DNA of 64,000 bases from Bdellovibrionales bacterium (lineage in GTDB: Bacteria; Bdellovibrionota; Bdellovibrionia; Bdellovibrionales; JAUICD01), in contig OZ241865.1 of NCBI GenBank assembly GCA_965203275.1, positions 480,001 through 544,000 of the forward strand, written 5' to 3'. Made by a program: the position numbers and the translations under genes. Of this stretch, positions 2,412 to 59,150 are shown in pieces (positions within the stretch are counted from its first letter, which is position 1; each line of letters begins with the position of its first letter). The notes under the pieces were generated by a model. It ran no database searches, was not told where the DNA came from, and saw only the letters and a program-made list of their open reading frames with translations.

Positions 2412-4112
2412 ATGTTGTTAGAAATAAAGAAAAGCCTTGCAGAAAGTTTATTGCCATTGTTTCAAGGGACATCTTGGCAAAAAGAAGACATTGAAAAAAT
2501 ACTGACACTGCCAAAACTTTTTTCACACGGGCATTTAGCACTTCCTGTCTTTACACTAGCAAAAGAACTGAAAAAATCACCACAAGAAATAGCTTCTAAA
2601 ATAACTCAAGAAGTTCAAATGCAAAATATCAATGGGGTGACAAACATCAAAGCTATTGGTGGTTTTGTAAATTTTCATTTCTCTAGTAGCTATCTTGCTC
2701 AAATTTTATGTCGATTTGTCTTTAGTAAACCTAACGATCAAACACAACAAAAACCTTCAAAGAAAATCATTATAGAATATTCTTCCCCTAATGTAGCGAA
2801 ACCATTGGGCATAGGTCACCTGAGGGCCACTGTCATTGGGCAAGCACTTTGTCATTTAGCTCACACACAGGGTTTTCAAGTGATTAGATGGAATCATCTT
2901 GGAGATTGGGGTGTGCAGTTTGGTCATTTGGTCCATGCTTATCAAAAATGGCACCATGAGTACTCATTTGAAAAAGAACCTCTCGAGTCCCTCTACAAAT
3001 TATATGTGCGATTTCATAATGAAATGAAAACTCATCCTGAGCTTAAGGACAAAGGAGAAGAGTGCTTTAAAAAACTAGAATCTGGAGATCCTGAAATAAC
3101 TCAGCTTTGGAAATTATTTATCTCTATCACAACAAAAGAACATGAAAAACTTTATAATCTTTTAGATGTTCAATTTGATATTGTCCAAGGAGAGTCTTTT
3201 TATAATGATCAATTAGACGCCACTGTCAAAAGAATTCAAGACGCTGGTTGCCTGCAAGAAAGTCAGGGAGCTTCTGTGGTTTTTCTTAAAAATGGTCCTC
3301 CTTGCATTATCAAAAAATCAGATGGATCTTCAATCTATGCTACGAGAGATATTGCCAGTGCTATCTATCGCCATGAAGTCATCAAAGCAGATAGAATATT
3401 ATATGTTGTAGGGTCTGAACAGTCTCTCCATTTCAAACAAATATTTGAAGTACTCGATCAAATGAAATATGAATGGGCTAAGAACTGTCATCATATTGCC
3501 TTTGGTCTTTACCACTTTAGAGATAGTAAAATGTCAACAAGAACTGGCAATGTGATCTTTATGGAAGATGTTCTTAATGAGGCTATTTCCAGGACTTCAC
3601 ATATCATAGAGACTAAAAACCCTCAAATTTCAAACAAAGCAGAGGTTGCAAAACAAGTGGGTATAGGAGCTGTGATCTTCAATGACCTAATGTGCGACCG
3701 TATCAAAAACATTGATTTTAATTGGTCTAATGTGTTGAACTTTGAGGGGGATAGCGGTCCTTATGTTCAATATTCTCTTGTTCGTTGTCGGAGTCTTCTT
3801 AAAAAATATACAAAAGAAATACTTCCTTATTTTAAACAAAATCTTACAACACAAGAAGAAATGCAAATATTAGTGATGTTAGTTACTTTTTCAGAAATTC
3901 TACAACAAGCATGGAGAACATTTAAGCCTCATATTTTAGCTCAATATGTATTGAAACTATGTCAAGAATTTAGTTCTTTTTATAATAAGCATAGAATTTT
4001 AGGAGAAGATCCGGATATAGAAGCAAGTAGAATGACTCTTGTGTATTGCATTGAACATATTTTAAGTCAGAGTCTTGGTATTTTAGGAGTACCTACTCCT
4101 TCAGAGATGTAA
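2412..4112 (+). CDS. argS: Arginine--tRNA ligase
   Basis: EYSSPNVAKPLGIGHLR, HLGDWGVQFG, KMSTRTGN, GDSGPYVQY motifs. Confidence 0.97.
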   Translation: MLLEIKKSLAESLLPLFQGTSWQKEDIEKILTLPKLFSHGHLALPVFTLAKELKKSPQEIASKITQEVQMQNINGVTNIKAIGGFVNFHFSSSYLAQILCRFVFSKPNDQTQQKPSKKIIIEYSSPNVAKPLGIGHLRATVIGQALCHLAHTQGFQVIRWNHLGDWGVQFGHLVHAYQKWHHEYSFEKEPLESLYKLYVRFHNEMKTHPELKDKGEECFKKLESGDPEITQLWKLFISITTKEHEKLYNLLDVQFDIVQGESFYNDQLDATVKRIQDAGCLQESQGASVVFLKNGPPCIIKKSDGSSIYATRDIASAIYRHEVIKADRILYVVGSEQSLHFKQIFEVLDQMKYEWAKNCHHIAFGLYHFRDSKMSTRTGNVIFMEDVLNEAISRTSHIIETKNPQISNKAEVAKQVGIGAVIFNDLMCDRIKNIDFNWSNVLNFEGDSGPYVQYSLVRCRSLLKKYTKEILPYFKQNLTTQEEMQILVMLVTFSEILQQAWRTFKPHILAQYVLKLCQEFSSFYNKHRILGEDPDIEASRMTLVYCIEHILSQSLGILGVPTPSEM

Positions 4113-4121
4113 AATTATTTT

Positions 4122-4177
4122 GGGATCCGGGATCCGGCATCTGGGATCTGGCATCCGGGATCCGGGATCTGGCATCC
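4122..4177 (+). repeat. 7-bp tandem array (GGGATCY/GGCATCY) x8
   Basis: gggatcc gggatcc ggcatct gggatct ggcatcc gggatcc gggatct ggcatcc, directly upstream of a core-unit head. Confidence 0.95.
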
Positions 4178-5038
4178 AAAGGAACTGTTTCCTTAACATA
4201 ATGTTAAGAGACGAAGAGATCCTTTCTACTCAAAGTGAACAAGCTTTTGAGGCGATGACCATTTTGTCAAAGGCGAAAGCCTTTGCGGTCATCGCCCAAA
4301 AGTGACCAGAGGTCAGTTCACTTTGAGTGAAACAAAACGAACTTTTTCCTTAACATCGTGTTAAAAAATGAGGAGATCCTCCCTACTCAAAATGAGCAGT
4401 TTTTTTGCGGCATTGCTCTTTTTAGACAGCGTAAGCTGTCAGAGCAAACATCCGAAGGAAATCTTTTTCCTTAACATGCTGTTAAGAAATGAGGACATCC
4501 TTCTTCCTAAAATTGAACAAGCTTTTGAGGGAGTTAGCCTTTGATCGACGACGATAGCCAAAAGGTGTAAGAAAGAACTTTTTCCTTAACATGGAGTTAA
4601 GGGACGAAGGGATCCTCCCTACTAAAAGTGGTCAAGCTTTCTAGGCAATGACCATTTTGCCAATGGCGAAAGCCATTGCGGTCATTGCCAGAAAGTAGCC
4701 AGAGGCTAGACCACTTTTAGTGAGCCAATGCCCAAAAACAGCCAGAGGCTGGTTTACTTTTAGTGAGACAACTCCTCCAGCCTGCCCCCGCCTCCCACTC
4801 ATAATAATATTTATGTTTTTTGAAAATTACGCAGAATCTAAAAAAAATAAAAAAAACAAAAAAACGAACTTTTTCCTTAACATCGTGTTAAAAAATGAGG
4901 AGATCCTCCCTACTCAAAGTGAACAGGCTTTTGAGACAATGACCACTTTGTCAAAGGCGAAAGCCTTTGCGGTCATTGTCCAAAAGTGGCCAGAGGCCAG
5001 TTCACTTTGAGTGAAACAGACCACTTTGAGTGAAACAA
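4122..5038 (+). mobile_element. Structured repeat mosaic, locus 1 (three complete core units 4188-4333, 4581-4723, 4872-5017; two 5' halves; 3' fragments; half long-hairpin)
   Basis: Recurrent TTTCCTTAACA-N3-TGTTAA heads, nested inverted repeats, CCAGAGG loops and AGTGAAAC tails shared with eight other loci; mobility is inferred from dispersal. Confidence 0.85.
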
Positions 5039-6839: not shown

Positions 6840-6942
6840 CCCCAAAAAGATAAAGGTTTGTAAAAGCTAATGATATGAATGGGAAAGAGTCTGGTCTTAG
6901 GGCAATGATTTTGAAATTTAAGAAATAAATTGAAGATCCAGC

Positions 6943-7065
6943 TCAAAAGTAGCCAGAGGCTAGTTGACTTTTAGTGAAAAAGATAAGAAGGCGGTAGCCT
7001 TCAGCTGGCAACCAGAAAGTGACCAGAGGTCAGGCCACTTTTAGGGAAACAACACCCTCCCCCCT
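6943..7065 (+). repeat. Structured repeat mosaic, locus 2 (two tandem 3' halves of core units)
   Basis: caaaagtagccagaggctagttgacttttagtgaaa and gaaggcggtagccttcagctggcaaccagaaagtgaccagaggtcaggccacttttagggaaac. Confidence 0.85.
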
Positions 7066-10012: not shown

Positions 10013-10052
10013 ATAGACGTTAAAACAGATTTTTTCTTAACATGGTGTAAAA

Positions 10053-12011: not shown

Positions 12012-14167
12012 TTATACAATAGAATCATCATTAGTCACAGTATTATTATTAGTAGCAGGTGGCTCATTATTATCGTTGGTATCTTCAGTGGCAGGAGCGG
12101 GAGCAGGAGCTTCGGGAGCAGGAGCTTCGGTAGCATCGGGAGCAGGATCGGTAGCTTCGGGAGCAGGAGCGGGAGCAGGAGCTTCGGGAGCAGGGTCGGC
12201 AGGATCGGGAGCAGGGGTCGGTAGGTTCAGCAGGGAGCAGGATCGGTAGCAGGAGCTTCAGTAGGAGCGGCAGGAGTAGTAGGTTCAGCTTCTGTATTGC
12301 CAGGTTCAGCAGGAGTAGTAGGTTCAGCAGGGGTAGTAGGTTCAGCAGTAGTAGGTTCAGCAGGAGTAGGTTCAGCAGTAGCATCAGTGGCATCAGCAGG
12401 AGGAGCATCGGGAGCAGGAGCAGGAGCTTCATCAGTGGCATGAGCATCAGCAGGAGGGGCATCAGCAGTAGGAGTAGTAGGAGCATCAGTGGCATCAGCA
12501 GTAGGAGTATCGGTAGCTGGAGCTTCAGTAGCAGGAGCTTCGGGAGCAGGAGCAGGAGCTTCATCATCGGCAACTGGAGTTAGGTTAGATACATACTCAA
12601 GACCTTCAAGAGCAAGTTGCATCACATAATTACCAACGACTATATCGACACCAAGAGTTAGTCTTCTATCATGAAGTTCTCTAGTTGTCCAAGTATCAGT
12701 ACTATCAGGGGCTTCTTCAATTAAAGCACTAAGAAAATCTGAATCAGCAGGTTCTGGTTGTTCCAAGCTTCTTCTAAATTCATCTCTGTTATCACTTTGG
12801 AAATGGAGAGATTTGGCAGGACCCTGATCAGAGTTGTCAGTATTGACCTCTAGTGACAAATGACCTGAATAACTTAAATATTCAGCAATATTTGTATCCG
12901 CAGGCACATTATCTGTAGCTACTACTGGATCTGCTGGAGCAGAAGTGTCTACAGAGTCAGCTTGATTTGCTGACTGATCTGAAGCTTCATCTGTTGTAGG
13001 TCCTTGGAAGAACATGGCACCTTGTGTAGGTGTAGTAACAACATCCTCTGTTGTTCCCTCTCCTGGTGCAAGAGATTGTTTCCATGCGTCTATTTGCTCA
13101 GGGGCAAACCAAATGATCTGTGCCATGTGTACACGCACAGTAGCATTGCTTAAAGCATTGCTTGCAGAACAAAGGCTTAATGCATCTGCGGGTAGTGCAG
13201 GTACCACATCACTCTGCTGGTCTGCTGATGTTTGAGGAGGTGCTACATCACCACTTTGTTGCTCAGTAGGTAGGGTACAAGCAATAACATTTGCATCTTC
13301 TGGAACACTTCCATTTTCCCAAGGCAAAAGATTGGCTGTCACATTTTCTACCTTACCAAAGTTAACCATAAAACGAGCTTGCAATGCAGTGTTTGCTTTC
13401 CACTTTCTTTCCTCTTCTTCCCCTTCTTCATCTTTAGGTTCTAAATATTCGTTAAGTGCCTCTCTTGAAGTTAAAGCTACTTCAGCTCTTATAAGATTGT
13501 TTTTATGAGCTTCATAATTTTGATCTAATAAAAGAACTGTTACAGCTTTACTTGTTTTTGTTTCATCAAGATCATGACGATTATATAAAAGTTTTCTGCC
13601 ATCACTTAATTGAACATTATTTTCAAAGAGATATTCTCCACTGTGATCATAACCGGTATCCCCATTATCTTCATCTTCTAATTCAACTCCAATGACCTGA
13701 CCCTGGTCATCCATTGGTGTTACATTTACAAATTTCATACTATCAAGACTAAGAGAGACAACATAGTCCTCACCCTCACTCTCACTAGCACTTTCTGCAC
13801 TACCTGTATTACCATCTGAACTTTCATTTTCACCTTCACTAGTATCTTCACTTTCATCATCAGTTGTTGGAGTAGCCCAACTTAAAAAATTCTCAAAAAG
13901 TTCTGCTTGCTCCGCAGTTAATGTATTGATTCCTCCTTGTTGATCTGCTACTATAGAACTTTCTTCTACACGTTGAGCATCTCTGAAGCTTTCAAAGCTT
14001 CTAGCATTTCTGCTATCAAAATCTGAATTACGTACTCTTAAGTTATTGACATACCCTTCATTGTCTACATGGTCAGGACTTGAAGGAGAACATCCTGTTA
14101 TAGTTAAGATCCCTGAAATACTTATTGCTACTATAGCTAATATTGATTTTAATTTTATAGTTTTCAT
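12012..14167 (-). CDS. Acidic lipoprotein with Pro/Ala/Thr-rich C-terminal repeats; annotated frame stops at 12227, repeat-coding frame continues to 12012 after two apparent +1 frameshifts
   Basis: Lipobox ITGC, RBS GGAGG; APAP/TEAPA repeats resume in shifted frames past TGA at 12227. Confidence 0.75.
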
Positions 14168-21203: not shown

Positions 21204-21710
21204 ATGCAACTTTATTATAAGGCTTTTCAAAGTCCACTTGGATGGATAGGTTTGTTGGCCTCTCCTCAGGGACTCCAACAGGTTTTTTGGAATACATCCT
21301 CTCATTATGTCCTTCCCTTTGCTACTTTAAAGCCAAAATACCCTATCTTACAAGAAGCTGAAAAGCAAATCAAAGAGTATTTTGAAGGGAGAAGAAAACA
21401 ATTTTCCCTCTGTTTAGATTTAAGGCAAGGTACATCTTTTCAGAGGAAGGCTTGGCATGCCCTACAAAAGATTCCTTATGGTCAGGTCATTTCTTATCAA
21501 AAACAAGCAGGCATGATGGGGTGTTATCGTGGATATAGGGCCGTAGGCAATGCAAATGGTAAAAACCCTATCCCTATTATTATCCCGTGTCATAGGGTAA
21601 TTCGTAAATCATCAGAAACAAAAATGACTCAACGTAAGATGGGTGGCTTTACAGGAGGGATAGAAAAAAAGGCTTTTTTACTCCAGCTAGAAGGTACTTT
21701 GGTTCACTAA
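21204..21710 (+). CDS. ogt: Methylated-DNA--protein-cysteine methyltransferase
   Basis: GTSFQ..AW..L..IPYG, RAVGNANGKNP, IPCHRV active site. Confidence 0.93.
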   Translation: MQLYYKAFQSPLGWIGLLASPQGLQQVFWNTSSHYVLPFATLKPKYPILQEAEKQIKEYFEGRRKQFSLCLDLRQGTSFQRKAWHALQKIPYGQVISYQKQAGMMGCYRGYRAVGNANGKNPIPIIIPCHRVIRKSSETKMTQRKMGGFTGGIEKKAFLLQLEGTLVH

Positions 21711-22520
21711 AAGTGGTCTAGCCTCTGGCTACTTTCTGGCAATGACCGCAATGGCTTTCGCCATTGGCAAAATGGTCATCACCTAGAAAGCCTGACCACT
21801 TTTAGTAGAAAGGATCTCTTCGTTTTTTAACACGATGTTAAGGAAAAAGATTTTCATTTGTAAACCCGCTTGCTCTCCAAAAATATTTTAGAAGAATACC
21901 TTGTTTCCCTAACATGGTGTCAGAAGCAAGGAGATCCGCTCTACTCAAAATGAGCAGATTTTTGAGGCATTGCTCTGACAGCGATAGCTGTCAGAGCAAT
22001 GCCCAAAAACACACCAGAGGTGTGGCTCATTTTGAGTGAAATGTTAAGGAAAAAGTTCTTTCTTACACCTTGAGTGTTGCCTGCAAAGGCTTTCGCCATT
22101 GGCAAAATGGTCATTGCCTCATTTGATTTGCACTAAAAGTAAACTGACCTCTGGTCACTTTTGGGTAGCCAGCCCGACGGCTACCGCCGTCGATCAAAGG
22201 CTGACTACCTCAAAAGTCCGTTTACTTTTAGTAGGGGAGGATCTCCTCGTCTCATAACTACATGTTAAGGAAAAAGTTCCTTCTCAAAAGCTTGTTCAAT
22301 TTTAGGAAGGAGGATATCCTCATTTTTTAACACCATGTTAAGGAAAAAGTTCCTCCTTACACCAGGATCCCGAGTTGCCGGTTCCCGGATGCCGGATCCC
22401 GGATCCCGGAAAAAGGATCCTCTCATATCCTTACACGATGTTAAGGAAACAAGCTATTTATTGCATTTTCTTTCGCCATCGGTAAAATGGTCATTGCCTC
22501 AAACTGAACACTTTTAGGGA
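21702..22520. mobile_element. Structured repeat mosaic, locus 3 (core units 21702-21846 minus, 21904-22041 plus, 22131-22274 minus; partial units; heptamer array about 22365-22408)
   Basis: Same head, cloverleaf and tail modules; lies between convergent ogt and ankyrin genes. Confidence 0.85.
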
Positions 22521-23194
22521 AAAAGGTCTATACAATTTTCAAAAATGACTTCTGGTGGATTTTCAGGATTGTATCTCGACATAGCATGCAATATGGCTTT
22601 CGACTTTTGAGTTTTATGGACCAAAGCATATCCTATAGCAGTCCATCCCCATTTATTGCTAATATCTATCCTTGCACCCCTGCTGAGTAGAAAACATATA
22701 GTTTCAATACGTTCATTTAAGACGGCTAACATCAAGGCTGTATTCCCCTGAATATTTGTGGCGTCTATTGTGCGATAGCCACCAGCCTGTAAAATTATTT
22801 TAATAATCTCTATATTGTCTCTTTTATCTGCGGCAACCATTAACAATGTTTCTTCCAATTCTGGAATAATTATAGCATTGGGATCTGCTCCAAAATCTAA
22901 GAATAACTGGATGATTGCTTTTTTATCATTTTCTCTATCGCAAACTTCATCAGCCAAAAGAACTTTTAAAAAAGATTGACCTCTATCATCTAAGGCATTA
23001 GGGTCTTCACCCCTTAGCAAGGCATCTCTTACTTGATCAGCCCGGCATAACAAAACAGCAAACTTTAGAGATATTAAATTTTCTGCGGTTTGAGAGGATC
23101 TCAGCGAAGCTTGACTGTGACCGAAGGTTATTTTTTGAGTCAATAAACCAAAGCTAATCAATGTGAAAAAAATTATATGTCGTAAAGAGATCAT
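22514..23194 (-). CDS. Ankyrin-repeat protein, probably secreted
   Basis: GEDPNALD, GADPNA, GNTALMLAV, GWTAIGYA repeats; hydrophobic N-terminus. Confidence 0.85.
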   Translation of the reverse strand: MISLRHIIFFTLISFGLLTQKITFGHSQASLRSSQTAENLISLKFAVLLCRADQVRDALLRGEDPNALDDRGQSFLKVLLADEVCDRENDKKAIIQLFLDFGADPNAIIIPELEETLLMVAADKRDNIEIIKIILQAGGYRTIDATNIQGNTALMLAVLNERIETICFLLSRGARIDISNKWGWTAIGYALVHKTQKSKAILHAMSRYNPENPPEVIFENCIDLFP

Positions 23195-23283
23195 CTATTT
23201 GACTTTAGATAAGATTCCAGACAGACACAAGTCCAAATCATATATTTGTGTTAATATTTTGTTTCTTTAATATGGTTTTCATA

Positions 23284-23358
23284 CGGGATCTGGGATCCGG
23301 GATCCGGCAACCGGCATCAGGTCCTGGAACCCGGGATGCTGGATTGCCAGATCCCGGA
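23284..23358. repeat. Degenerate heptamer array with inverted end (repeat family remnant)
   Basis: cgggatctgggatccgggatccggcaaccggcatc...ccagatcccgg; head-like tgtttctttaatatgg just upstream. Confidence 0.75.
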
Positions 23359-27472: not shown

Positions 27473-28267
27473 ATGGCCTCTCCATTCGATCAACAAGCAT
27501 CTATTGATGGCATACAAAATGTTTTTGTCATAGCTTCTGGTAAAGGAGGTGTGGGCAAAAGCACTGTAACAAGTAATTTAGCTCTGGCACTTTGTCAACA
27601 AGGTAAAAAGATAGGACTCTTAGATTGTGATATTTATGGCCCTAGCATTCCTCGTATGTTGGGTTTGCTCAATCAGAAACCTACTGTCAGTAAAGACAAT
27701 CGTTTGATCCCATTAGAAAAATATAACATGAAGGTTATGAGTATTGGCTTTATGGTAGCAGAAACCTCTGCTGTGGTATGGCGTGGACCCATGCTATTTA
27801 AAGCCATTGATCAATTTTTAAAAGATGTTCAGTGGGGGTTGTTAGATGCTCTTATAATTGATTTGCCTCCGGGGACAGGTGATGTGCAGTTGACGTTGGC
27901 ACAGAGGATTCCCATTACAGGTGCTGTGGTTGTCACAACCCCTCAAAATGTGGCTTTAGCTGATGTGATCAAGTCTATTGATATGTTTAAAACAGTTAAA
28001 GTACCTGTGATAGGGGTGGTAGAAAATATGTCTTATTTTAGGTCAGAGCAAGGACGTATGGAGCTTTTTCCAAAAGGCGATTTACAATCTTATTTAACTC
28101 AAAATAATATTCCTCTTTTAGCTCAAGTGCCATTTCATACTTCTGTAGCTATGGGAGGGGAAGCAGGTTTACCTGTTGTACAAACACACCCTCAGAGCAT
28201 CGAATCCCAGGCTTTCTTTCAAATAGCTCAGTCAATTGGCTCACTAATTTCACTAAAAGTAAACTAG
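27473..28267 (+). CDS. mrp: Mrp/NBP35 (ApbC) Fe-S carrier ATPase
   Basis: SGKGGVGKST, DIYGPS, WRGPM, DLPPGTGD, VVENMS. Confidence 0.93.
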   Translation: MASPFDQQASIDGIQNVFVIASGKGGVGKSTVTSNLALALCQQGKKIGLLDCDIYGPSIPRMLGLLNQKPTVSKDNRLIPLEKYNMKVMSIGFMVAETSAVVWRGPMLFKAIDQFLKDVQWGLLDALIIDLPPGTGDVQLTLAQRIPITGAVVVTTPQNVALADVIKSIDMFKTVKVPVIGVVENMSYFRSEQGRMELFPKGDLQSYLTQNNIPLLAQVPFHTSVAMGGEAGLPVVQTHPQSIESQAFFQIAQSIGSLISLKVN

Positions 28268-29092
28268 CCTCTGGCTACTTTTGGACATTGCTCTTTTTGG
28301 ACAGCGATAGCTGTCAGAGCAATGCCCAAAAACACACCAGAGGTGTGGCTCATTTTGAGTGAAATGTTAAGGAAAAAGTTCCTTTTTTTGTTTTTTTTAT
28401 TCTCTTTTAGATTCTGCGTAACTCTCAAAAAAAAAGTAATTAAGAGGAGGATGGGGGCAGAGGGAGACTGGAGATCTTCCGCAAATTGAGCTTGCTCCTC
28501 AAAACATTCTAGAAGCATATCTTGTTTCCCTAACATGGTGTTAGAAGCAAGGAGATCCGCCCTACTCAAAATGCATAGATTTTTGAGGCAATGACCATTT
28601 TGTCAAAGGCGAAAGCCTTTGCGGTCATTGCCCAAAAACATGCCAGAGGCATGATGTATTTTGAGTGAAAAAAATTGAGGACTTCGGAAGGCTCCCTCTG
28701 CCCTCATCCTCAAGTAAAAACAAAATGGAATAGCAGAATCAAAGGGTGGCGGGTGGGGTTAGGGGTTTGTTTCACTAAAAGTGGTCTGACCTCTGGTCAC
28801 TTTCTGGTTGCCAGCCGAAGGCTATTCGCCTTCTCAAATGCTGGCAACCTAGAAAGCCTGACCACTTTTAGTAGAAAGGATCTCTTCGTCTCTTGACTAC
28901 ATGTTAAGGAAAAAGTTCCCTCCTGACTGCCTGATGCCGGGTTGCCAGATTCCGGATCCCAGATCCCGGAAAAAGGATCCTTTCGTTTTTTGTTTTTTTT
29001 ATTATCTCTTAGATTCTGCGTAACTTTCAAAAAAAATATAAATGTTATGAGTGGAAGGCGGAGGCAGGCTGAAGGAGTTGTTTCACTAAAAT
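28237..29092. mobile_element. Structured repeat mosaic, locus 4 (two-tailed chimera 28249-28363; long hairpin 28410-28740 split by a core unit 28525-28670; minus unit 28769-28912; heptamers; half long-hairpin)
   Basis: Module identity with the other loci; lies between convergent mrp and acnA and overlaps both stop codons. Confidence 0.85.
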
Positions 29093-37510: not shown

Positions 37511-39187
37511 GTGTCAGATTCTTATAAAGTAGAATCATCTACAACAGAAGCAAGAGCTAGTCGGTCATCAGAAAGAACAGAAGATAAGCGATCAGAATAT
37601 TCTTATCGAGATAGAGATCGAGATAATTATCGGGATCGAGATAGAGATCGGGATCGAGATAATTATCGGGATCGGGATCGGGATAATTATCGAGATAGAG
37701 ATCGGGATCGAGATAATTATCGGGGGCGTCGAGCTACAGGAGGGTATCGTAATTATAGACAGACAACCGGTGGACGACGACCATCTAACAACAATGACCA
37801 CACAAATCATAGAAGATCTTATCGCAGATTTGAAAGCTATAATCAAGGAGGGGATGATGTTGATGCTGGTCTCAACACAGAGCTAACAGAAGACCAGATA
37901 GAAAAAATTAAAAACTCTTTAACTGATGAAGAAAAAAAATCTCTTAATTCTAAAGATCTTAAATCTAAAAAAATTGAAGCCCTCACGAACCTTGCCATTA
38001 AGCTACAAATAGAGCATGCAGCAGGCTTCCGTCGTCAAGATTTGGTTTTTGAAGTTCTTAAACGAGCTGCTAAATTTGGTGATATTTTTGGTAATGGTAT
38101 TTTGGAGATATTGCCTGATAGTTATGGATTTTTACGTTCCCCAGATTATAATTATTTGCCTGGGCCAGATGATATCTATGTCAGTCCATCTCAAATCAGA
38201 CGTTTTGGTTTGAGGACAGGTGACACAATTGCAGGGACAGTCCGTCCACCTAAAGATAATGAAAATTACTTTGCACTCTTAAAAGTAGACACTCTTAATA
38301 AAGAACCTTTAGAGCAGTTTAAAGATAAAATTTTGTTTGATAATTTAACACCTCTTTATCCTGATGCAAGGCTTAATCTAGAACATAATCCCACCAACCT
38401 CACCACTCGTGTTGTGGATATGATGTCCCCATTAGGTAAAGGACAGAGAGCTTTGATTGTAGCCCCTCCTAGGACGGGCAAAACTGTTTTATTACAAGAT
38501 ATTGCCAATGCTATTTCTATTAACCAGCCAGAAGCTTTTTTGATTGTTTTGTTAATTGATGAAAGACCAGAAGAAGTTACAGACATGTCGCGCAGTGTAA
38601 AAGGAGAAGTGATCAGCTCTACATTTGATGAACCTCCTGGAAGGCATATCCAAGTGGCAGAGATGGTTTTAGAAAAAGCTAAAAGGCTTGTCGAACATAA
38701 ACATGATGTTGTGATCTTGTTAGATTCCATCACTCGTTTGGCAAGGGCTTACAATACAGTTGTGCCAGCATCAGGTAAGATTTTATCTGGAGGTGTGGAT
38801 TCGAATGCTCTGCATAAACCAAAAAGATTTTTTGGAGCAGCTCGAAATATTGAAGAAGGGGGAAGCTTGACTATTATAGCCACAGCCTTGATTGATACAG
38901 GGTCACGTATGGATGAACTGATCTTTGAGGAATTTAAAGGAACAGGTAATGCAGAAATTCACCTTGATCGTAAGTTAATGGAAAAGCGAATTTTCCCATG
39001 CATAGATATCAATAAATCTGGTACTCGCAAAGAAGATCTTCTTTTAGATAACAATTTATTGCAAAAGCTTTGGATTTTAAGAAAGGTTCTTGCTCCTATG
39101 AATGTGGTAGACAGCATAGAATTTCTATTGAAAAAGCTCAAAGTCACTAAGAGTAATGAAGATTTTATTGCCAGCATGAACAATTAA
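37511..39187 (+). CDS. rho: Transcription termination factor Rho with Arg/Asp low-complexity N-terminal extension
   Basis: [64 protein letters not shown] before GTG. Confidence 0.97.
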
Positions 39188-42071: not shown

Positions 42072-42445
42072 TGTTAAGAAAAGAGAGGATATTCTCCTCT
42101 AGAGGAATAGGCAGTCAGGTTATTTTAAATCCTGAGTGCCTGTTTGCCGGAAGGCAAGATACCATATCCGGCATCTGGGATCCGGGATCCGGCATCTGGG
42201 ATCCGGCAACTGGCATCCGAGATCCGGGATCTGGGATCCGGGATCTGGGATCCGGGATCCGGCAACCCGGCAGACAGGGATGAAAAAATGCCTTGTTTCC
42301 TTAACATGATGTTAAAAGAGGAAAGGATCCTCCTACTAAAAGTGGTCAAGCTTTCTAGGTTGCCAGCAATTGAGAAGGCGAAAGCCTTCGGCTGGCAACC
42401 AGAAAGTAGCCAGAGGCTAGTTCAATTTTAGGGAAACTTAGTGAA
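42072..42445 (+). mobile_element. Structured repeat mosaic, locus 5 (partial head, 14-unit heptamer array 42170-42267, chimeric core unit 42296-42437)
   Basis: Same modules; begins 2 bp after a stop codon. Confidence 0.85.
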
Positions 42446-43276: not shown

Positions 43277-43283
43277 CCGTTTT

Positions 43284-44018
43284 GTTTCACTCAAAGTGAA
43301 CTGACCTCTGGTCACTTTTGGACAATGACCGCAAAGGCTTTCGCCTTTGACAAAATGGTCATTGTCTCAAAAGCCTGTTCACTTTGAGTAGGGAGGATCT
43401 CCTCGTCTCTTGACCACATGTTAGGGAAACAGAGTTTTATTCGCAAACTGTTTGCTCCTGAGATAATAAAAGAAATTTTCCCTAACATGGTGTAAAGAAA
43501 TAAAAGGATCCTCCCTACTCAAAATGCATAGATTTTTGAGGCAATCAGCCTTTGATCGACGGCGGTAGCCGTCGGGCTGATTGTCCAAAAACATGCCAGA
43601 GGCATGATGCATTTTGAGTGAAATGTTAAGGAAAAAGTTCCTTCTTACGGCTTTTGGCTCTCGCCGTTGATCAAAGGCTAACTGCCTAGAAAATCCATTT
43701 ATTTTGAGTAGGGAAGGATCTCCTCATTTTTTAACACAATGTTAAGGAAACAAGGTTTTCGCTTCACTCCTGCCCGTTTGCCTGATGCCGGGTTGCCGGA
43801 TCCCAGATCCCGGATCCCGGATCCCAGATCCCGGATCCCGGATCCCAGATCCCAGATCCCGGATCCCAGATCCCAGATCCCAGATCCCGGATCCCGGATC
43901 CCGGATCCCAGATCCCGGATCCCGGATCCCGGATCCCGGATCCCAGATCCCGGATCCCAGATCCCGGATCCCGGATCCCAGATCCCAGATCCCAGATCCC
44001 GGATCCCAGATCCCAGAT
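43284..44018. mobile_element. Structured repeat mosaic, locus 6 (minus unit 43284-43429, plus unit 43477-43623, minus 5' half, long heptamer array)
   Basis: Same modules, in a head-to-head arrangement. Confidence 0.85.
43798..44014 (-). repeat. 7-bp tandem array (RGATCCC) x31
   Basis: Uninterrupted run of ggatccc/agatccc units over 217 bp. Confidence 0.97.
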
Positions 44019-49777: not shown

Positions 49778-49815
49778 GATGGGGCAGTGACAAGATGTCC
49801 AGTCAGGTCGTTGCA

Positions 49816-50846
49816 TTTCACTAAAAATAAACCAGCCTCTGGCTACTTTCTGGTTGCCAGCCGAAGGCTTTCGCCTTCTTAAATGCTGGCAACCTAGAAA
49901 GCTTGACCACTTTTAGTGAAACAAACTCCCTAACCCCACCCACCGCCCTTCGATTCTGCTTTTCTATTTGTATGTTTTTTATGAGTGGAATGCGGGTGCA
50001 GGCTTCCGAAGTCCTCAACCTTCGCTTGCTTTTGGGGAGCAAGCGGGCCTGCGGAAGATCTTCAGCCTGCCCCCGCCTCCCACTCATAATATTCTTCATT
50101 TTTTTGAAAGTTATGCAGAATCTAAAAAAATATAAAAAAACAAAAAAACGAAATCTTGTTTCCTTAATATTTCACTCAAAATGCATCATGCCTCTGGCAT
50201 GTTTTTGGGCGTTTGTCTCACTAAAAATAAACCAGCCTCTGGCTGTTTTTGGGCATTGGCTCACTAAAAGTGGTCTAGCCTCTGGCTACTTTCTGGCAAT
50301 GACCGCAATGGCTTTCGCCATTGGCAAAATGGTCATTGCCTAGAAAGCTTGACCACTTTTAGTAGGGAGGATCCCTTCGTCCCTTAACTCCATGTTAAGG
50401 AAAAAGTTCTTTCTTACACCTTTTGGCTCTCGCCGTCGATCAAAGGCTGATTGCCTCAAAAATCCGTTTATTTTTAGTAAGGAGGATCTCCTCTTTTCTT
50501 AACACCATGTTAAGGAAACAAGCTATTTATTTCACTTTTTTCGCCGTTGACAAAATAGTCATTGCCTCAAAAATCTATGCATTTTGAGTAGGGAGGATCC
50601 TTTTATTCCTTTACACCATGTTAGGGAAAATTTCTTTTATTACCTCAAGAGCAAGCGGGCTTACAAATGAAACTCTGTTTCCTTAACATGTAGTAAAAAA
50701 ACGAAGGGTTCCTCCCTACTAAAAGTAAACGGACTTTTGAGGCATTGCTCTTTTTAGACAGCGTAAGCTGTCAGAGCAATGTCCAAAAGTAGCCAGAGGC
50801 TAGTTTACTTTTAGTGAACCAGAGGTGTGGCTCATTTTGAGTGAAA
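49816..50846. mobile_element. Structured repeat mosaic, locus 7 (intact long hairpin about 49952-50122; triple-nested units 50170-50629; plus unit 50677-50819)
   Basis: Same modules; arms of the nested units match in reverse order. Confidence 0.87.
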
Positions 50847-51722: not shown

Positions 51723-54305
51723 TTAAGGAGAGGCTGGCGTTTTAGTTGGTAACTTAGTTGGTGTCTTAGTCGGTGTTTTGGTCGGTGTTTTAGTTGGTGG
51801 TTTATTTGCAGAACAACTTTGGTTTGTGCTACCACCATGCAGTCCTTCACAGTGCCACCTATACGCAGTAGCAGTATCCTCTATTGCTTGATCATCAGGA
51901 GTGCCGTGCAAACACGTATTCCTCTCTGTACCACACTGGCCGTTTATAGGCAACGGGATAGGACTTACATTTGTGATGGGTTCATTATCACCTAAGTTTT
52001 GATTGTCAATAGTCCCATCAGCTCTACGCTTTGTAATTGCCCCTTGCCCTAACTGACCAAACCAATTATCTCCCCAACACTTTACATTCCCATTATCTAA
52101 AACAAAGCACGCATTAGAGCCACCTGCTGAAATAGCCGTCACACTCCGTCCACTATCTAGAGCTACAGCTTGTAAATGAGTTCCCATTTCATTGGCTTGA
52201 TCTCCAATGTATGATTTGGTGTTTTGATTATTGCCTATTCCTAATTGACCCTTGGAATTGTCTCCAAAACACTTCATTTTACTATTATCTAAGAGAACAC
52301 ATGTGTGAGCAATTCCTGCATCAACCGCACTCACAGTGCGGTTAGCACCCAATGCAATAGCAACATTAGAAGCTGCTATTTCATTATACTGATCGCCATA
52401 GTTTTGTTTATCGTTTTGATTATCACCTAAACCTAACTGCCCTGCATGATTCCGACCCCAACATCTTAAACTTTTATCCTCAAAAGTTGCACAGGTATGG
52501 TAGGCCCCTGCTGTGACAGCCACAGCTTTTTTATTTAACATCACAGGTGAAATATTTGCAAATTCTCCTGTGGCATCACCAATATTAACATTACTGCTAT
52601 CTTTACCAGCAGTTAAACCTAGCTGACCATATTCGTTACTACCCCAACATTTCACCTTACCATCATCACTACCACCGGTCAGGACAGCACAAGTATGTTT
52701 GTGTCCAGCAGTGATGGCCTTGACCTTAAAGTTTTGACCGCCTACAGGAGGCTGATTGGCTACCATTTTCTGAGCGTTATGGCCTATATTTACTGTATTA
52801 TCGTAACCTAACTGACCCTTATCATTGTATCCCCAACATTTCATAGCTTTATTCTCTTTGAGAATAGCACACGTGTGATGGCTTCCAAGAGCAATAGCAT
52901 AAGCTGTCAAATTGGTTCCTAAATTCACAGTGGCAAGATTTGTCATTTCATCAACACTTCCATCACCTATATCATTTGTATGACCTAATCCCAACTGACC
53001 ATAAGTATTTTGCCCCCAACATTTTATTTTATTATTATCTAAAATAGCACAAGTATGTTTTCCTTGTTTTTGTGTGTTGTTTTGGCAGGTATCTGAAGCT
53101 TGAGGAGGATACAATCTATCGCAACAATTAACAGAGTTTTCACCATTTGTGCAGGCAGGAGCCTGTGCAAAGACTGGAGATGGAGCAACTGAAGGAGCAG
53201 GTGAAGCAGCAGCTTGTAAAGTATTCAAACAAGTTTGTCGATTTTGTGTATTAGAATCAGGGCAACAATTATTGGTGTTGTCACCTTGACATAAATGAAG
53301 CCGTTCTGCTCCCTCTGCTGCTGCAATGGTAATAGCTTTTCTACCTAAATGAACAGTAAGGAGACGACTCATTTCATTGCTCTGATCACCTATGCGACGT
53401 ATACTGTCTGTCGTATTGCCAGCAGTTAAACCCAACTGCCCTGCTGAATTATCCCCCCAACATTTAACTGAACCCTGAGATAAAAAGCAACTATGCCAAG
53501 TGCCTGTAGCTATTTGATCAACTATAACTAAAGTTTGTGTGATTTCAAACCGGACACTTGTGACCTGAGATTCTTCTCGTGGCATGGCCTTTTTTGCCTG
53601 AATATGCAAATAAAAAGTACCACTTGTTTTTGTATTTGCTGATGGATAAGTTACTGTTTTGGTATCTCCATACGCTTCATTAGTGAATGCATGAGTCGCA
53701 GAAGCACTGACAACATGACGGAAAGTACACGGCGGTTTGTTACAGTTCCAATTCCAAGTCACAGAAGTTTGAGGCGAAGTGGGTGGAACAATTCCTGTCA
53801 CCTCTAATGATGATGATGATGTTTCATCAGATGATGTTCCTCCTATAACAGCTTTTCTTGTGATCACTCCAGATTTGTATCCAGAACTACTATCCATCGC
53901 CTGAACATGTAAGTAATAAGTGCAGGGAGGACTTGAACAATCTTGTAATATTCTTTTAGCATTTTTATTGTTTGCTTTAAAATCATTGCTTGTAAATTTA
54001 GATTGTTGCTTTGCATTTGTAATGCGAGAAGCATACGTGCAGTTTTTCTTTGTATCAGTACATCTCCAAGTCCATTCTACTGCTCCTTTTGGTGTATCAA
54101 AATCTTTTGGAAGAACACTTAATCCAAGAGATTGTGAGGTCCCTGCCCCCTTTCCAGCAGAATTATTTGTCTGGCAATTTTGAAAGCCAATAAATAATAC
54201 AAACAAACAACCCACTAAAACATACAAAACTTTGCGATGTTCCGTGTTGATACGATTATTACGCAATTGGGTTTGAATTTTTTTCTTTATATTTGTTATA
54301 TTCAT
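51723..54305 (-). CDS. RCC1/BLIP-II repeat, Cys-rich surface lipoprotein
   Basis: About 7 repeats of HTCA..D..KCWG.N..GQLG; FQNC lipobox; NGQCG Cys module; PTKT tail repeats; GGAGG RBS. Confidence 0.88.
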   Translation of the reverse strand: MNITNIKKKIQTQLRNNRINTEHRKVLYVLVGCLFVLFIGFQNCQTNNSAGKGAGTSQSLGLSVLPKDFDTPKGAVEWTWRCTDTKKNCTYASRITNAKQQSKFTSNDFKANNKNAKRILQDCSSPPCTYYLHVQAMDSSSGYKSGVITRKAVIGGTSSDETSSSSLEVTGIVPPTSPQTSVTWNWNCNKPPCTFRHVVSASATHAFTNEAYGDTKTVTYPSANTKTSGTFYLHIQAKKAMPREESQVTSVRFEITQTLVIVDQIATGTWHSCFLSQGSVKCWGDNSAGQLGLTAGNTTDSIRRIGDQSNEMSRLLTVHLGRKAITIAAAEGAERLHLCQGDNTNNCCPDSNTQNRQTCLNTLQAAASPAPSVAPSPVFAQAPACTNGENSVNCCDRLYPPQASDTCQNNTQKQGKHTCAILDNNKIKCWGQNTYGQLGLGHTNDIGDGSVDEMTNLATVNLGTNLTAYAIALGSHHTCAILKENKAMKCWGYNDKGQLGYDNTVNIGHNAQKMVANQPPVGGQNFKVKAITAGHKHTCAVLTGGSDDGKVKCWGSNEYGQLGLTAGKDSSNVNIGDATGEFANISPVMLNKKAVAVTAGAYHTCATFEDKSLRCWGRNHAGQLGLGDNQNDKQNYGDQYNEIAASNVAIALGANRTVSAVDAGIAHTCVLLDNSKMKCFGDNSKGQLGIGNNQNTKSYIGDQANEMGTHLQAVALDSGRSVTAISAGGSNACFVLDNGNVKCWGDNWFGQLGQGAITKRRADGTIDNQNLGDNEPITNVSPIPLPINGQCGTERNTCLHGTPDDQAIEDTATAYRWHCEGLHGGSTNQSCSANKPPTKTPTKTPTKTPTKLPTKTPASP

Positions 54306-58100: not shown

Positions 58101-59150
58101 TTTTGAGGCATTGTTTCACTAAAAGTAAACTAGCCTCTGGCTACTTTTGGACATTGCTCTGACAGCTTACGCTGTCTAAAAAGAGCAATGTCTCAAAAGT
58201 CCGTTTACTTTTAGTAAGGAGGATCTCTTCGTCTCTTTACACCATGTTAAGGAAAAAGTTCCTTTTAACAACGAGTTGCCGGATCCCGGATCCCAGATCC
58301 CGGGAAAAAGGATCCTCTCATATCCTTATATGCTTGAAACAAAGCATTCGTTTTTTTTATTTTTTTTAGATTCTGTGTAATTTTCAAAAAAGCGTGAATG
58401 TTATGAATGAGAGGCGGAGGTAAACTGAAAGGTTTACTTCACTAAAAGTGGTCTGACCTCTGGTCACTTTCTGGTTGCCAGCCGAAGGCTACCGCCTTCT
58501 CAATTGCTGGCAACCTCCACTTTTAGTAGAAAGGATCTCTCCTCTCTTAACATGATATTAAAGAAACAGTTCCTTTATTGCAACTCATTTGCCTCCCAAA
58601 AAATTTTAGAATCATATCTTGTTTCCCTAACATGGTGTCAGAAGCAAAGATATCCACCCTACTCAAAATGAGCAGATTTTTGAGGCATTGCTCTTTTTAG
58701 ACAGCGTAAGCTGTCATCAGAAGGAAATCTTTTTCCTTAACATGATGTTAAGAAATGAGGACATCCTTCTTCCTAAAATTGAACAAGCTTTTGAGGCAGT
58801 TAGCCTTTGATCGACGACGACAGTCGTCGGGATGCCCAAAAGTAGCCAGAGGCTAGTTCAATTTTAGGGAAACAGAGGTGTCTCATTTTATATCATGTTA
58901 AGGAAATAAGGCATTCGTTTTTTTATATTTTTTTTAGATTCTGTGTAAATCTCAAATAAAAAGTAATTAAGGGGAGGATGGGGCAGTGGAAGCCTTCCGA
59001 AGTCCTCAATTGAGCTTGCTTTTAAAGAGCAAGCTCAATTTGCGGAAGATCTCCAGGCTCCCGTTGCCACATCCTCAAGTAAAAACAAAAATGGAAAAGC
59101 AGAATCAAGGGCAGGGGGTGGGGTTAGGGAGTTAATTGGTTCACTAAAAA
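58101..59150. mobile_element. Structured repeat mosaic, locus 8 (minus unit 58113-58255, heptamers, half long-hairpin, nested pair 58622-58889, long hairpin with inverted interior 58937-59106)
   Basis: Same modules; between divergent maeB and SpoIID-domain genes. Confidence 0.85.

What the first reader, a model, noticed from the sequence alone, without database searches (positions are those of the whole stretch)
4188..5038. Dispersed ~146-bp non-coding element with a covarying three-way-junction fold (candidate new system)
Seen: the unit is head TTTCCYTAACA-N3-TGTTAA...GATCC, then helix P1, a long bulged helix P2, a side hairpin P3 and tail GAAA(C). More than a dozen full or near-full copies plus many halves occur at nine loci (4122, 6943, 21702, 23284, 28237, 42072, 43284, 49816, 58101). 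Sequence varies but pairing is kept. P1: actcaaagtgaac/gttcactttgagt, actaaaagtggtc/gaccacttttagt, actcaaaatgagc/gctcattttgagt, actcaaaatgcat/atgcattttgagt, actaaaagtaaac/gtttacttttagt, cctaaaattgaac/gttcaattttagg. P2 has four very different versions of the same shape: ggcaatgacc..caaaggc, ggcattgctct..gacagc, ggttgccagc..gaaggc, ggcaatcagcc..gacggc. P3: tgacc, tagcc, tggcc, cagcc, catgcc and cacacc stems around an invariant CC-AGA-GG. Inference: structure rather than sequence is maintained, as in a single-stranded mobile substrate or structured RNA. I do not recognise it as REP/BIME, ERIC, attC, an IS end or an Rfam family.
Basis: partly seen in the sequence, partly recalled or inferred. Interest (0 to 1): 0.92.

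Follow-up and report, generated by a model that had tools for sequence, protein, structure and literature searches.

The report
Abundant Y-shaped hairpin DNA repeat
This stretch holds copies of a 150-base non-coding DNA unit that keeps a three-armed folded shape while its sequence varies and fills about 6% of a small host-associated bacterial genome; it behaves like a new family of selfish intergenic repeats whose copying enzyme is unknown.

Summary
Window 4185-5036 carries three full units, two 5' parts, one 3' part and a 17-nt tail piece. The window has 16 full or near-full units. The genome has 1,256 non-overlapping matches, 5.9% of 2.57 Mb, 694 of them full length.

Covariation is strong: 96.7% of cells paired against 81.4% in shuffles, and 27 of 39 pairs changed on both sides against 2-5 when partners are slid. 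Copies from two related genomes give the same result. The two arms of a helix are more tightly linked than neighbouring segments of different helices.

The unit matches no Rfam family. The genome has no Y1/RAYT gene and no reverse transcriptase. Filled versus empty sites show no target duplication and 1-45 target bases replaced. Units land, same strand, inside older units, mostly with the right junction at the P3 loop.

Only the multi-copy four-helix-bundle gene (PF05635), flanked by GGGATCY heptamer arrays, co-occurs with the element in all five family genomes tested.

Verdict: a real, lineage-restricted structured selfish repeat with unknown mobiliser. This scan already found the family five times elsewhere in this genome.

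The parts
4121..4177 (+). Array of eight GGGATCY/GGCATCY heptamers directly upstream of the first unit's leader and head
   Evidence: Genome-wide, 124 of 226 such arrays have a same-orientation head starting within 40 nt downstream, against 10 in the mirror control.
4185..4335 (+). Full unit 1: head hairpin, P1, P2, P3 and tail GTGAAAC
   Evidence: R1 173.7 bits; fold -71.6 kcal/mol, z -9.4
4342..4460 (+). 5' part: head, P1 5' arm and P2 hairpin, cut in the 3' strand of P2 and followed by the leader and head of the next unit
   Evidence: nhmmer model positions 1-97; sequence read
4463..4577 (+). 5' part with a different P1 and P2 version, followed by a GGTGTAAGAAAGAA leader
4578..4728 (+). Full unit 2
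   Evidence: R1 167.7 bits
4726..4771 (+). 3' part (P3, P1 3' arm, tail); its arm matches none of the upstream 5' parts
   Evidence: nhmmer model positions 106-151; read
4772..4868 (+). Spacer module (CTCCTCCAGCC...CCCACTCATAA...TTACGCAGAATCTAAAAAA, A-rich). It recurs beside many units and belongs to a second repeat family.
   Evidence: Recurrent flanks
4869..5019 (+). Full unit 3
   Evidence: R1 172.1 bits
5020..5036 (+). 17-nt tail fragment (end of a P1 3' arm plus GTGAAAC) of another version, directly after unit 3
   Evidence: similar tail pieces follow many units
6941..7052 (+). Two 3' parts in tandem
21699..22529 (.). Cluster: full units at 21699-21849 (-), 21901-22044 (+) and 22125-22276 (-); a 5' part at 22277-22349 (-); a heptamer array at 22373-22407 (-); further pieces
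23263..23346 (+). Degenerate head plus heptamer array only, with no body
   Evidence: no R1 or nhmmer match
28245..28980 (.). Cluster: a 3' part, full units at 28522-28673 (+) and 28767-28915 (-), and a heptamer-rich stretch at 28926-28980
42170..42439 (+). Heptamer array 42170-42267, then unit 42293-42439 whose two P1 arms are of different versions (a chimera)
43282..44014 (.). Full units at 43282-43432 (-) and 43474-43626 (+), a 5' part at 43655-43752 (-), and a long heptamer array at 43791-44014 (-) upstream of that head
49815..50822 (.). Cluster: 3' parts, a full unit at 50256-50406 (-), two 5' parts, and a full unit at 50675-50822 (+)
58111..58909 (.). Cluster: a full unit at 58111-58258 (-), heptamers at 58274-58301, a near-full unit at 58434-58569 (-), a 5' part at 58620-58711 (+), and a full unit at 58729-58875 (+)

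Best explanation
The unit is a non-coding, non-autonomous selfish DNA repeat. Its order is leader AGAAGGAA-like, head hairpin, a Y-shaped body of P1/P2/P3, and tail GTGAAAC; it is about 150-165 nt long.

Shown: it has multiplied within one small lineage. It sits almost only between genes, on both strands. It can appear as a single unit at a new site. It often lands, in the same orientation, inside older copies.

Inferred: it spreads as a folded single strand, most likely DNA. Propagation needs the fold, which is why both arms of each helix change together while helices are swapped between copies. Integration has a fairly fixed right (tail) junction, often in the invariant CCAG^AGG loop of P3 or at purine-rich, tail-like sites. 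The left junction is variable. Integration makes no target duplication and replaces a few to tens of target bases.

The enzyme is not identified. The best candidate helper is the multi-copy PF05635/TIGR02436 four-helix-bundle gene flanked by GGGATCY arrays. The expanded Rpn/YhgA-type nucleases are a second candidate.
For: Abundance and placement.
- 1,256 non-overlapping matches cover 5.88% of the genome; 650 are on + and 606 on -.
- 98% of element bases lie outside a crude ORF gene set. Elements occupy 19% of tandem, 28% of divergent and 29% of convergent intergenic regions.

Fold is maintained.
- Searches show the pairing and compensatory changes.
- Arm-to-arm linkage (AMI 0.66-0.89) exceeds that of adjoining segments of different helices (0.16-0.55).

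New insertions.
- 13 filled/empty comparisons through paralogous flanks cover about 8 target contexts. None of the 13 has a target duplication, and 1-45 target bases are replaced.
- The cleanest case (G000 1827546) is a pure insertion of leader plus unit. One unit is inserted in the coding part of a PF05635 paralogue and one in its leader.

Self-insertion.
- 210 of 275 5' parts are followed within 40 nt by a same-strand full unit or 5' part; 6 are followed by an opposite-strand one.
- In 41 of 86 '5' part + full unit' pairs with a downstream tail, that tail is perfectly complementary to the interrupted arm. Shuffled partners give 17 +/- 3.7%.
- 59 of the 86 tails start 6-8 nt after the inserted unit, which places the junction at the P3 loop.

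Lineage restriction.
- R1 matches 3 of 101 genomes of the order: G000, G001 and G004.
- In a draw of 151 genomes from the phylum, only G000 matches.

Candidate helper.
- The element and PF05635 are both present in G000, G001 and G004 and both absent from G002 and G003.
- In G000, 14 of 15 PF05635 ORFs have an element within 150 nt downstream, 13 on the same strand.
Against: - No mobilising enzyme was found. Y1/RAYT is absent from G000. Reverse transcriptase is absent from G000 and G004. Tyrosine recombinase is absent from G004.
- The PF05635 link rests on five related genomes. In G004, 0 of 5 PF05635 loci examined have an element within 1.5 kb. A four-helix bundle has no known catalytic role in transposition.
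- Junctions are heterogeneous. About half of the nested-looking arrays do not have matching outer arms. That also fits recombination or replication slippage.
- No presence/absence difference between strains could be shown, because short-read contigs break at the repeats.
- No replication-strand bias could be tested. GC skew and gene orientation give no replichores.
- The 'empty' references are paralogues 77-100% identical, so some 'replaced' bases could be divergence.
Confidence: 0.6

Rival explanations
1. There is no dedicated mobility machinery. The family grew by host processes: replication template switching at hairpin-stalled forks, microhomology-mediated repair, unequal recombination and gene conversion between copies. 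Conversion tracts that cover whole hairpins keep the arms matched.
For: - Junctions lack target duplications, replace 1-45 target bases and often share short similarity with the leader or tail.
- Breakpoints of partial units are spread over many positions.
- Helices are swapped between copies as blocks, and a chimera with mismatched P1 arms exists at 42293-42439.
- Tandem arrays are common.
- No transposase candidate was found.
Against: - 694 units share the same full length and ends.
- Single units appear at unrelated sites, including inside a gene.
- Insertions into older units are same-strand in 210 cases against 6, with a preferred right junction.
- P1 arms lie about 90 nt apart yet pair in 93-100% of copies across nine or more versions. 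Block conversion alone does not guarantee this.
Confidence: 0.2
2. The unit is a structured RNA, either a small RNA gene or a cis-acting element in transcripts such as a processing or stability signal. The fold is selected at the RNA level.
For: - Compensatory changes occur in every helix.
- Wobble pairs outnumber A-C/C-A mismatches 256 to 134 on one strand, and a conserved U-G pair closes P1.
- The P2 apical loop reads GNNA in 526 of 609 copies and GNRA in 332 of 609.
- In tandem intergenic regions orientation leans slightly towards the gene's strand, 359 against 283.
Against: - About 1,250 copies lie on both strands in all kinds of intergenic region, including divergent ones.
- Many copies are broken or nested.
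- The opposite strand folds as well.
- No Rfam match.
- No T-run follows P1, so the unit is not an intrinsic terminator (read).
- GCGAAAGC-type loops are also very stable in DNA (recalled, not tested).
Confidence: 0.08
3. The unit is a SINE-like retroposon copied through RNA by target-primed reverse transcription.
For: - The tail junction is fixed and the left junction variable; target deletions occur; many 5'-truncated pieces share the tail; tails stack behind full units.
Against: - No RVT_1 match in G000 or G004, both of which carry the element.
- 3'-truncated pieces (275) are as common as 5'-truncated ones (235).
Confidence: 0.04
4. The unit is a domesticated host element, such as a binding site for a nucleoid or regulatory protein, kept for the cell's benefit.
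For: - The head's 5' arm and the P3 loop are almost invariant.
- The unit persists in two genera.
Against: - Copy number differs widely between relatives: at most 30 candidates were scored per genome, all 30 matched in G000 and G001 but only 12 in G004, and none in G002 or G003.
- Units pile into each other and into other repeats.
- There is no fixed relation to gene starts or ends.
Confidence: 0.05

Closest known systems
REP / BIME / REPIN elements mobilised by RAYT (Y1 HUH) transposases. PMC3116915 and PMC3337134 were seen as search listing and abstracts only.
   Same: Extragenic, high copy number, hairpin-forming, non-autonomous, vertically kept in a lineage, often clustered.
   Different: The unit is 150 nt with a head hairpin and a three-way junction, not a 20-40-nt palindrome or an inverted REP pair. 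No Y1_Tnp gene is in the genome. Units nest inside one another. Helices exist in several interchangeable versions.
MITEs derived from DDE insertion sequences
   Same: Small, non-coding, abundant and structured; presumed to be mobilised in trans.
   Different: 0 of 13 filled/empty comparisons show a target duplication. The ends of the genome's IS256-like element differ; that element makes 8-bp duplications and has itself landed in two units.
Modular pneumococcal BOX elements, neisserial Correia elements and ERIC (recalled; no paper read here)
   Same: Intergenic structured repeats built of modules, some of them transcribed.
   Different: Unrelated sequence. Copy number here is about ten times higher relative to genome size. 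The three-armed fold with covarying versions and self-insertion is not part of what I recall of them.
Rickettsia palindromic elements (recalled)
   Same: 100-150-nt hairpin repeats expanded in a host-associated bacterium.
   Different: As I recall, those often sit in frame inside protein genes. Here about 98% of element bases are outside ORFs.
Intervening sequences of 23S rRNA that carry a PF05635 gene (family name from Pfam; biology recalled)
   Same: The same small four-helix-bundle gene family is tied to hairpin-shaped inserts.
   Different: The single 23S gene here has no such insert and no unit. The gene lies beside units, not inside them.

Membership tests
REP/REPIN-RAYT | A cognate RAYT (Y1 HUH, PF01797) gene in the genome | tested here: not met
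   0 matches in G000; the same search finds the family in 6 of 14 control genomes
REP/REPIN-RAYT | Short imperfect palindromes, typically as inverted pairs forming one long hairpin | tested here: not met
   The unit is about 150 nt with a head hairpin and a branched P1/P2/P3 fold; the covariance model has one branch point
REP/REPIN-RAYT | Extragenic, with hundreds of copies | tested here: met
   1,256 matches; about 98% of element bases lie outside ORFs
DDE-type MITE | Target-site duplication flanking insertions | tested here: not met
   0 of 13 filled/empty comparisons
DDE-type MITE | Terminal inverted repeats shared with a parent IS in the genome | tested here: not met
   The ends of the IS256-like element (7 aligned copies) are unrelated. 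Only 2 IS4-like copies were aligned, and I did not examine their ends against the unit. Head and reversed tail look partly alike by eye only; this was not computed.
IS200/IS605-derived PATE | A TnpA (Y1) and/or TnpB partner gene | tested here: not met
   No Y1_Tnp match. The only PF07282 match lies in a 1,365-aa ORF.
Rfam RNA families | Match at the family's gathering score | tested here: not met
   0 matches in the 64 kb. The best weak match is STnc460 at 23.4 bits against a threshold of 70, E 0.27.
Retroposon / retron / group II-derived repeat | A reverse transcriptase in element-bearing genomes | tested here: not met
   RVT_1 gives 0 matches in G000 and G004, and 3 in G001
Integron attC sites | An integron-type tyrosine recombinase and gene cassettes between sites | tested here: not met
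   PF00589 gives 0 matches in G004 and 2 in G000. Units stand in arrays without cassettes. The identity of the two G000 genes was not examined.
23S rRNA intervening sequence | An insert within the 23S rRNA gene | tested here: not met
   The LSU gene at 972841-975857 is continuous over model positions 1-2925. No unit lies inside it; the nearest are at 970011-970311.

The most novel reading that the evidence does not exclude
The Y-shaped unit, the GGGATCY heptamer arrays and the multi-copy four-helix-bundle (PF05635, Avd/IVS-protein-like) gene cassettes form one mobile system with no recognisable transposase or polymerase. In this reading a folded single strand is pasted, tail first, into hairpin loops (CCAG^AGG) and purine-rich sites by host replication or repair, guided by the small protein. 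That would be a new way for bacterial DNA to multiply, and a first function for a widespread orphan gene family.
Probability: 0.15. Interest if true: 0.85.

Novelty: new variant of a known kind. Interest (0 to 1): 0.62.

Why it matters
Structured intergenic repeats are known, but for most families outside REP/RAYT the copying mechanism is unknown. This family gives unusually rich internal evidence: hundreds of copies, several interchangeable versions of each helix, nested insertions and paralogous empty sites. From these, the ends, the target preference and the structural requirements can be read directly. If the link to the four-helix-bundle gene holds, it would give a testable role to a widespread orphan family also found in rRNA intervening sequences. 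By my recollection that family also includes the accessory protein of diversity-generating retroelements. In practice, the repeats break short-read assemblies of this symbiont lineage and produce spurious ORFs: 22 ORFs of 100 aa or more are over 30% element.

Tried and rejected
- Expression: no RNA holder is listed among the 18 runs returned. The four runs laid are contigs that stop inside the repeats and bridge none of them, so they gave neither expression nor strain polymorphism.
- Replication-strand bias: cumulative GC skew and gene orientation show no replichores, so the test could not be made.
- Orthologous empty site in the same-genus genome: ArgRS is only 73% identical. The upstream GYF-domain gene is still adjacent to ArgRS in G001, but the region downstream of ArgRS holds different genes. 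No comparison was possible.
- Rpn/YhgA (PF04754) as the mobiliser:
  - These genes are enriched next to units: 38 of 84 ORF pieces have one within 150 nt upstream and 48 of 84 downstream. The background for random genes, measured within a wider 300 nt, is 14% upstream and 17% downstream.
  - They show no fixed architecture relative to units.
  - G003 has 16 matches and no element.
  - I keep Rpn only as a second candidate.
- IS256-like, IS4-like and resolvase families: no tie to units.
- Metagenome scan with a P3-to-tail pattern: 61 stretches matched, and 0 of 61 match model R1, so they are chance hits.
- The search for related loci with ArgRS in genome contigs found no relative. The protein atlas gave only the generic ArgRS family.
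- Literature: three unit motifs occur in 11 papers, and the 10 listed are all unrelated eukaryote work. Searches on the 23S intervening-sequence protein and on sponge or Bdellovibrio-like symbiont repeats gave nothing on this element. From these four searches I found no description of the family. Subscription journals are not covered.
- Simple nesting as the only source of partial units: rejected. Only 13 of 33 triplets and 41 of 86 pairs have matching outer arms, and none in 4342-4771 do.
Full report
**What is at the site.** Window 4121-5036 lies between the stop codon of an arginyl-tRNA synthetase gene (2412-4112) and a 575-aa HTH-domain ORF. In order, it holds:

| Coordinates | Feature |
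|---|---|
| 4121-4177 | eight GGGATCY/GGCATCY heptamers |
| 4185-4335 | full unit |
| 4342-4460 | 5' part |
| 4463-4577 | 5' part |
| 4578-4728 | full unit |
| 4726-4771 | 3' part |
| 4772-4868 | A-rich spacer module that recurs elsewhere |
| 4869-5019 | full unit |
| 5020-5036 | 17-nt tail piece |

A unit reads: purine-rich leader (AGAAGGAA-like), head hairpin (TTTCCYTAACA-N3-TGTTAAG...GATCC), P1, the long bulged P2, the side hairpin P3 with loop CC-AGA-GG, the P1 return strand, and tail GTGAAAC. One unit folds at -71.6 kcal/mol (z -9.4). Its complement folds at -69.4 (z -9.7).

**Is it more than chance?**
- The head motif occurs 26 times in the window against 0.15 expected.
- A three-seed profile finds 1,423 matches in the 2,567,810-bp, 35% GC genome.
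- After removing opposite-strand double hits, 1,256 matches remain. They cover 150,984 bp (5.88%), and 694 are full length.
- The window has 16 full or near-full units and about 10 partial ones at eight loci.

**Covariation.**
- On A1 (16 window copies plus 8 from genomes G001 and G004), 96.7% of cells pair against 81.4 +/- 0.8% in 500 shuffles.
- 27 of 39 pairs changed on both sides, against 18.2 +/- 1.8 in shuffles (0 of 500 reach it) and 2-5 when partners are slid by 1-3 columns.
- A set drawn only from G001 and G004 (28 distinct copies, aligned to the model and so biased towards it) gives 96.9% against 81.2%, and again 27 of 39.
- Genome-wide, 629 distinct full copies pair in 98.6% of cells against about 82% with shuffled partners.

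Copies are related, so shuffles overstate significance. As a control that respects relatedness, I compared linkage between segments:

| Comparison | AMI |
|---|---|
| two arms of P1 | 0.66 |
| two arms of lower P2 | 0.74 |
| two arms of upper P2 | 0.89 |
| two arms of P3 | 0.85 |
| directly adjoining segments of different helices | 0.16-0.55 |
| head against everything else | at most 0.16 |

So helices are exchanged between copies as modules, while their two arms stay matched even when about 90 nt apart. Exceptions exist: unit 42293-42439 has arms of two versions.

**Which strand, DNA or RNA?**
- On the head-to-tail strand, G-T/T-G cells (256, leaving out the closing pair) outnumber A-C/C-A cells (134).
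- The closing T-G pair is kept in 623 of 627 copies. That favours this strand as the folding one.
- The P2 apical loop is GNNA in 526 of 609 copies and GNRA in 332. Such loops are stable in RNA and, as I recall, in DNA (GCGAAAGC), so this does not decide.
- No run on record as RNA holds the region.

**Where the copies lie.**
- About 98% of element bases are outside a crude ORF set.
- Units occupy 190 of 1,001 tandem, 87 of 315 divergent and 86 of 292 convergent intergenic regions.
- In tandem regions, 359 units point with the genes and 283 against.
- There is no replichore signal in GC skew or gene orientation.
- This is the pattern of a selfish repeat, not of a terminator or a regulated RNA gene.

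**Evidence of insertion.** I searched for the two flanks of full units lying next to each other elsewhere in the genome. This gave 13 filled/empty comparisons in about 8 target contexts.
- None of the 13 shows a target duplication.
- The cleanest (G000 1827546) is a pure insertion of leader plus unit, with at most one ambiguous base.
- The others replace 6-45 target bases: 6 in the coding part of a PF05635 paralogue and 30 in its leader. Others lie in hairpins of a second repeat family and in a tandem repeat family.
- One pair (G000 1109530 and 1392275) has an 'empty' site that still holds a head remnant, so it is ambiguous.
- Junctions often resemble the unit's own ends. Targets read GGGAAACAAC or GAGAAG at the tail side and TAGAAAGGAGG or TAGATAGGAG at the leader side.
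- The empty references are paralogues (77-100% identical), which limits precision.

**Self-insertion.**
- Of 275 5' parts, 156 are followed within 40 nt by a same-strand full unit and 54 by another same-strand 5' part. Six are followed by an opposite-strand piece.
- Of 235 3' parts, 98 are preceded by a same-strand full unit.
- Of 153 '5' part + full unit' pairs, 86 have a tail-like motif within 75 nt downstream. In 41 of these the tail is perfectly complementary (14 of 14) to the interrupted P1 arm, against 17 +/- 3.7% (maximum 31%) with shuffled partners.
- In 59 of the 86 it starts 6-8 nt after the inserted unit, which places the right junction in the P3 loop.
- An earlier, coarser test gave 13 of 33 against 4 of 33.
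- So about half of the arrays are true nests. The rest, including every partial unit in 4342-4771, are not explained by simple nesting.
- The left break in the older unit varies (model positions 68-116).

**Search for the enzyme.**

| Family | G000 | G001 | G002 | G003 | G004 |
|---|---|---|---|---|---|
| Element | yes | yes | no | no | yes |
| Y1/RAYT (PF01797) | 0 | not searched | not searched | not searched | not searched |
| RVT_1 (PF00078) | 0 | 3 | 1 | 0 | 0 |
| Tyrosine recombinase (PF00589) | 2 | 2 | 7 | 0 | 0 |
| Four-helix bundle (PF05635) | 14 | 19 | 0 | 0 | 19 |
| Rpn/YhgA (PF04754) | about 20 long ORFs | 19 | 0 | 16 | 1 |

The counts are search matches, not copy numbers.
- The Y1/RAYT control search finds the family in 6 of 14 known genomes.
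- The only TnpB-type zinc-ribbon match lies in a 1,365-aa ORF.
- The IS256-like element (7 aligned copies, 8-bp duplications) has unrelated ends, and two copies sit inside units.
- Among the 60 largest multi-copy ORF families, the PF05635/TIGR02436 gene stands out. 14 of 15 ORFs have a unit within 150 nt downstream, 13 on the same strand.
- The nine intact copies are flanked on both sides by GGGATCY arrays. In six of them a head's first half precedes the upstream array.
- Genome-wide, 124 of 226 heptamer arrays are followed within 40 nt by a same-orientation head (mirror control 10), and 84 are preceded by an orphan head.
- Caveats: these are five related genomes. In G004, 0 of 5 PF05635 loci have a unit within 1.5 kb, though they do have heptamer-like arrays. 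In G001 the units near the gene are in mixed orientation.
- Rpn/YhgA nuclease genes are enriched beside units but have no fixed arrangement. They abound in G003, which lacks the element.

**Distribution.**
- Model R1 matches 3 of 101 genomes sampled from the order, in 2 of 53 genera.
- It matches only G000 among 151 genomes sampled from the phylum; that draw did not include G001 or G004.
- A metagenome pattern scan gave 61 stretches, none confirmed by R1.
- Read sets of several coded host organisms and of sponge metagenomes hold the region. Summed word depth over the repeats is up to about 390 times that of the flanks in X1. This is not a copy number but agrees with high multiplicity.

**Comparison with what is known.** In role the unit is closest to REP/REPIN elements, MITEs and other structured intergenic repeats. 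It fails the defining tests for:
- REP/RAYT;
- DDE MITEs;
- IS200/IS605 derivatives;
- retro-elements;
- attC sites;
- rRNA intervening sequences;
- every Rfam family.

Of the REPIN papers I saw only listings and abstracts. What I say of BOX, Correia, ERIC, Rickettsia palindromic elements, Avd and Rpn biochemistry is recalled, not tested.

**Earlier notes of this scan.** Five earlier follow-ups on other windows of this genome reached a similar reading: about 1,300 copies, 6% of the genome, self-nesting, enzyme unknown, and a tie to the intervening-sequence-type gene. I re-derived the counts, the nesting and the gene link independently.
- the arm-versus-neighbour linkage test;
- the paralogous filled/empty junctions, with no duplication and small target replacement;
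- the five-genome co-occurrence table, including the negative results for reverse transcriptase, tyrosine recombinase and Rpn;
- the quantified tie between heptamer arrays and heads.

**Verdict.** This is a real, lineage-restricted family of structured selfish DNA repeats. It is a new variant of a known kind. The fold is clearly maintained, and the insertion signature is unusual: tail-anchored, often into its own P3 loop, with no target duplication. No mobiliser is identified.

Noticed in passing
window 4121-4177, 22373-22407, 23285-23319, 42170-42267, 43791-44014, 58274-58301: Tandem GGGATCY/GGCAWCY heptamer arrays; there are 226 genome-wide. They usually lie between an orphan head half and the next complete head, and on both sides of every intact PF05635 gene. 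Similar arrays flank that gene in G004, where units are rare.
   Followed up: partly
window 4772-4868; G000 around 788540-788850, 1692742-1693000 and many others: A second multi-copy family with its own hairpins (CTTCCGCAGACCCGCTTGCT...AGCAAGCG...TTGAGGACTTCGGAAG...CCACTCATAA, then an A-rich run). It lies next to units and is itself a target of unit insertion.
   Followed up: partly
G000 472361-472669 and 13 other places (L010-L017): The leader of the PF05635 gene can pair TTTCCTCC with the GGAGGAAA of its ribosome-binding site, in both G000 and G004. This may be a translational switch. The same purine run resembles the unit's leader.
   Followed up: no
G000 genome-wide, e.g. 942652-945558: 93 ORFs or ORF pieces with ankyrin repeats, and about 84 pieces of Rpn/YhgA-type nuclease genes. 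This fits a host-associated lifestyle and a genome rich in junk regions.
   Followed up: partly
window 10032-10048: A lone head-like motif (TTTTCTTAACATGGTGT) 20 nt after the stop of the isoleucyl-tRNA synthetase gene, with no body detected.
   Followed up: no
window 12072-12563, 37599-37736, 52033-53468: Other tandem repeats unrelated to the element: GGAGCA-rich repeats at 12072-12563, an 18-nt period at 37599-37736 and a period of about 186 nt at 52033-53468. They are probably coding repeats.
   Followed up: no
L008:245-411 and 1831-1997, L045:2954-3132 (G001): Some G001 copies are 165-180 nt long. They have extra sequence in P1 or in the P3 loop region and still pair.
   Followed up: no
G000 756280-757199, 577078-577538, 614675-615562, 1740013-1740837: A tandem repeat family of about 231-245 nt (ATTAGAAATAGAATATTCAAGGAAGGGAAATTTTGA GGGAAACAAC GCACGTATCTC...). 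Its GGGAAACAAC motif is a recurrent landing site for units.
   Followed up: partly
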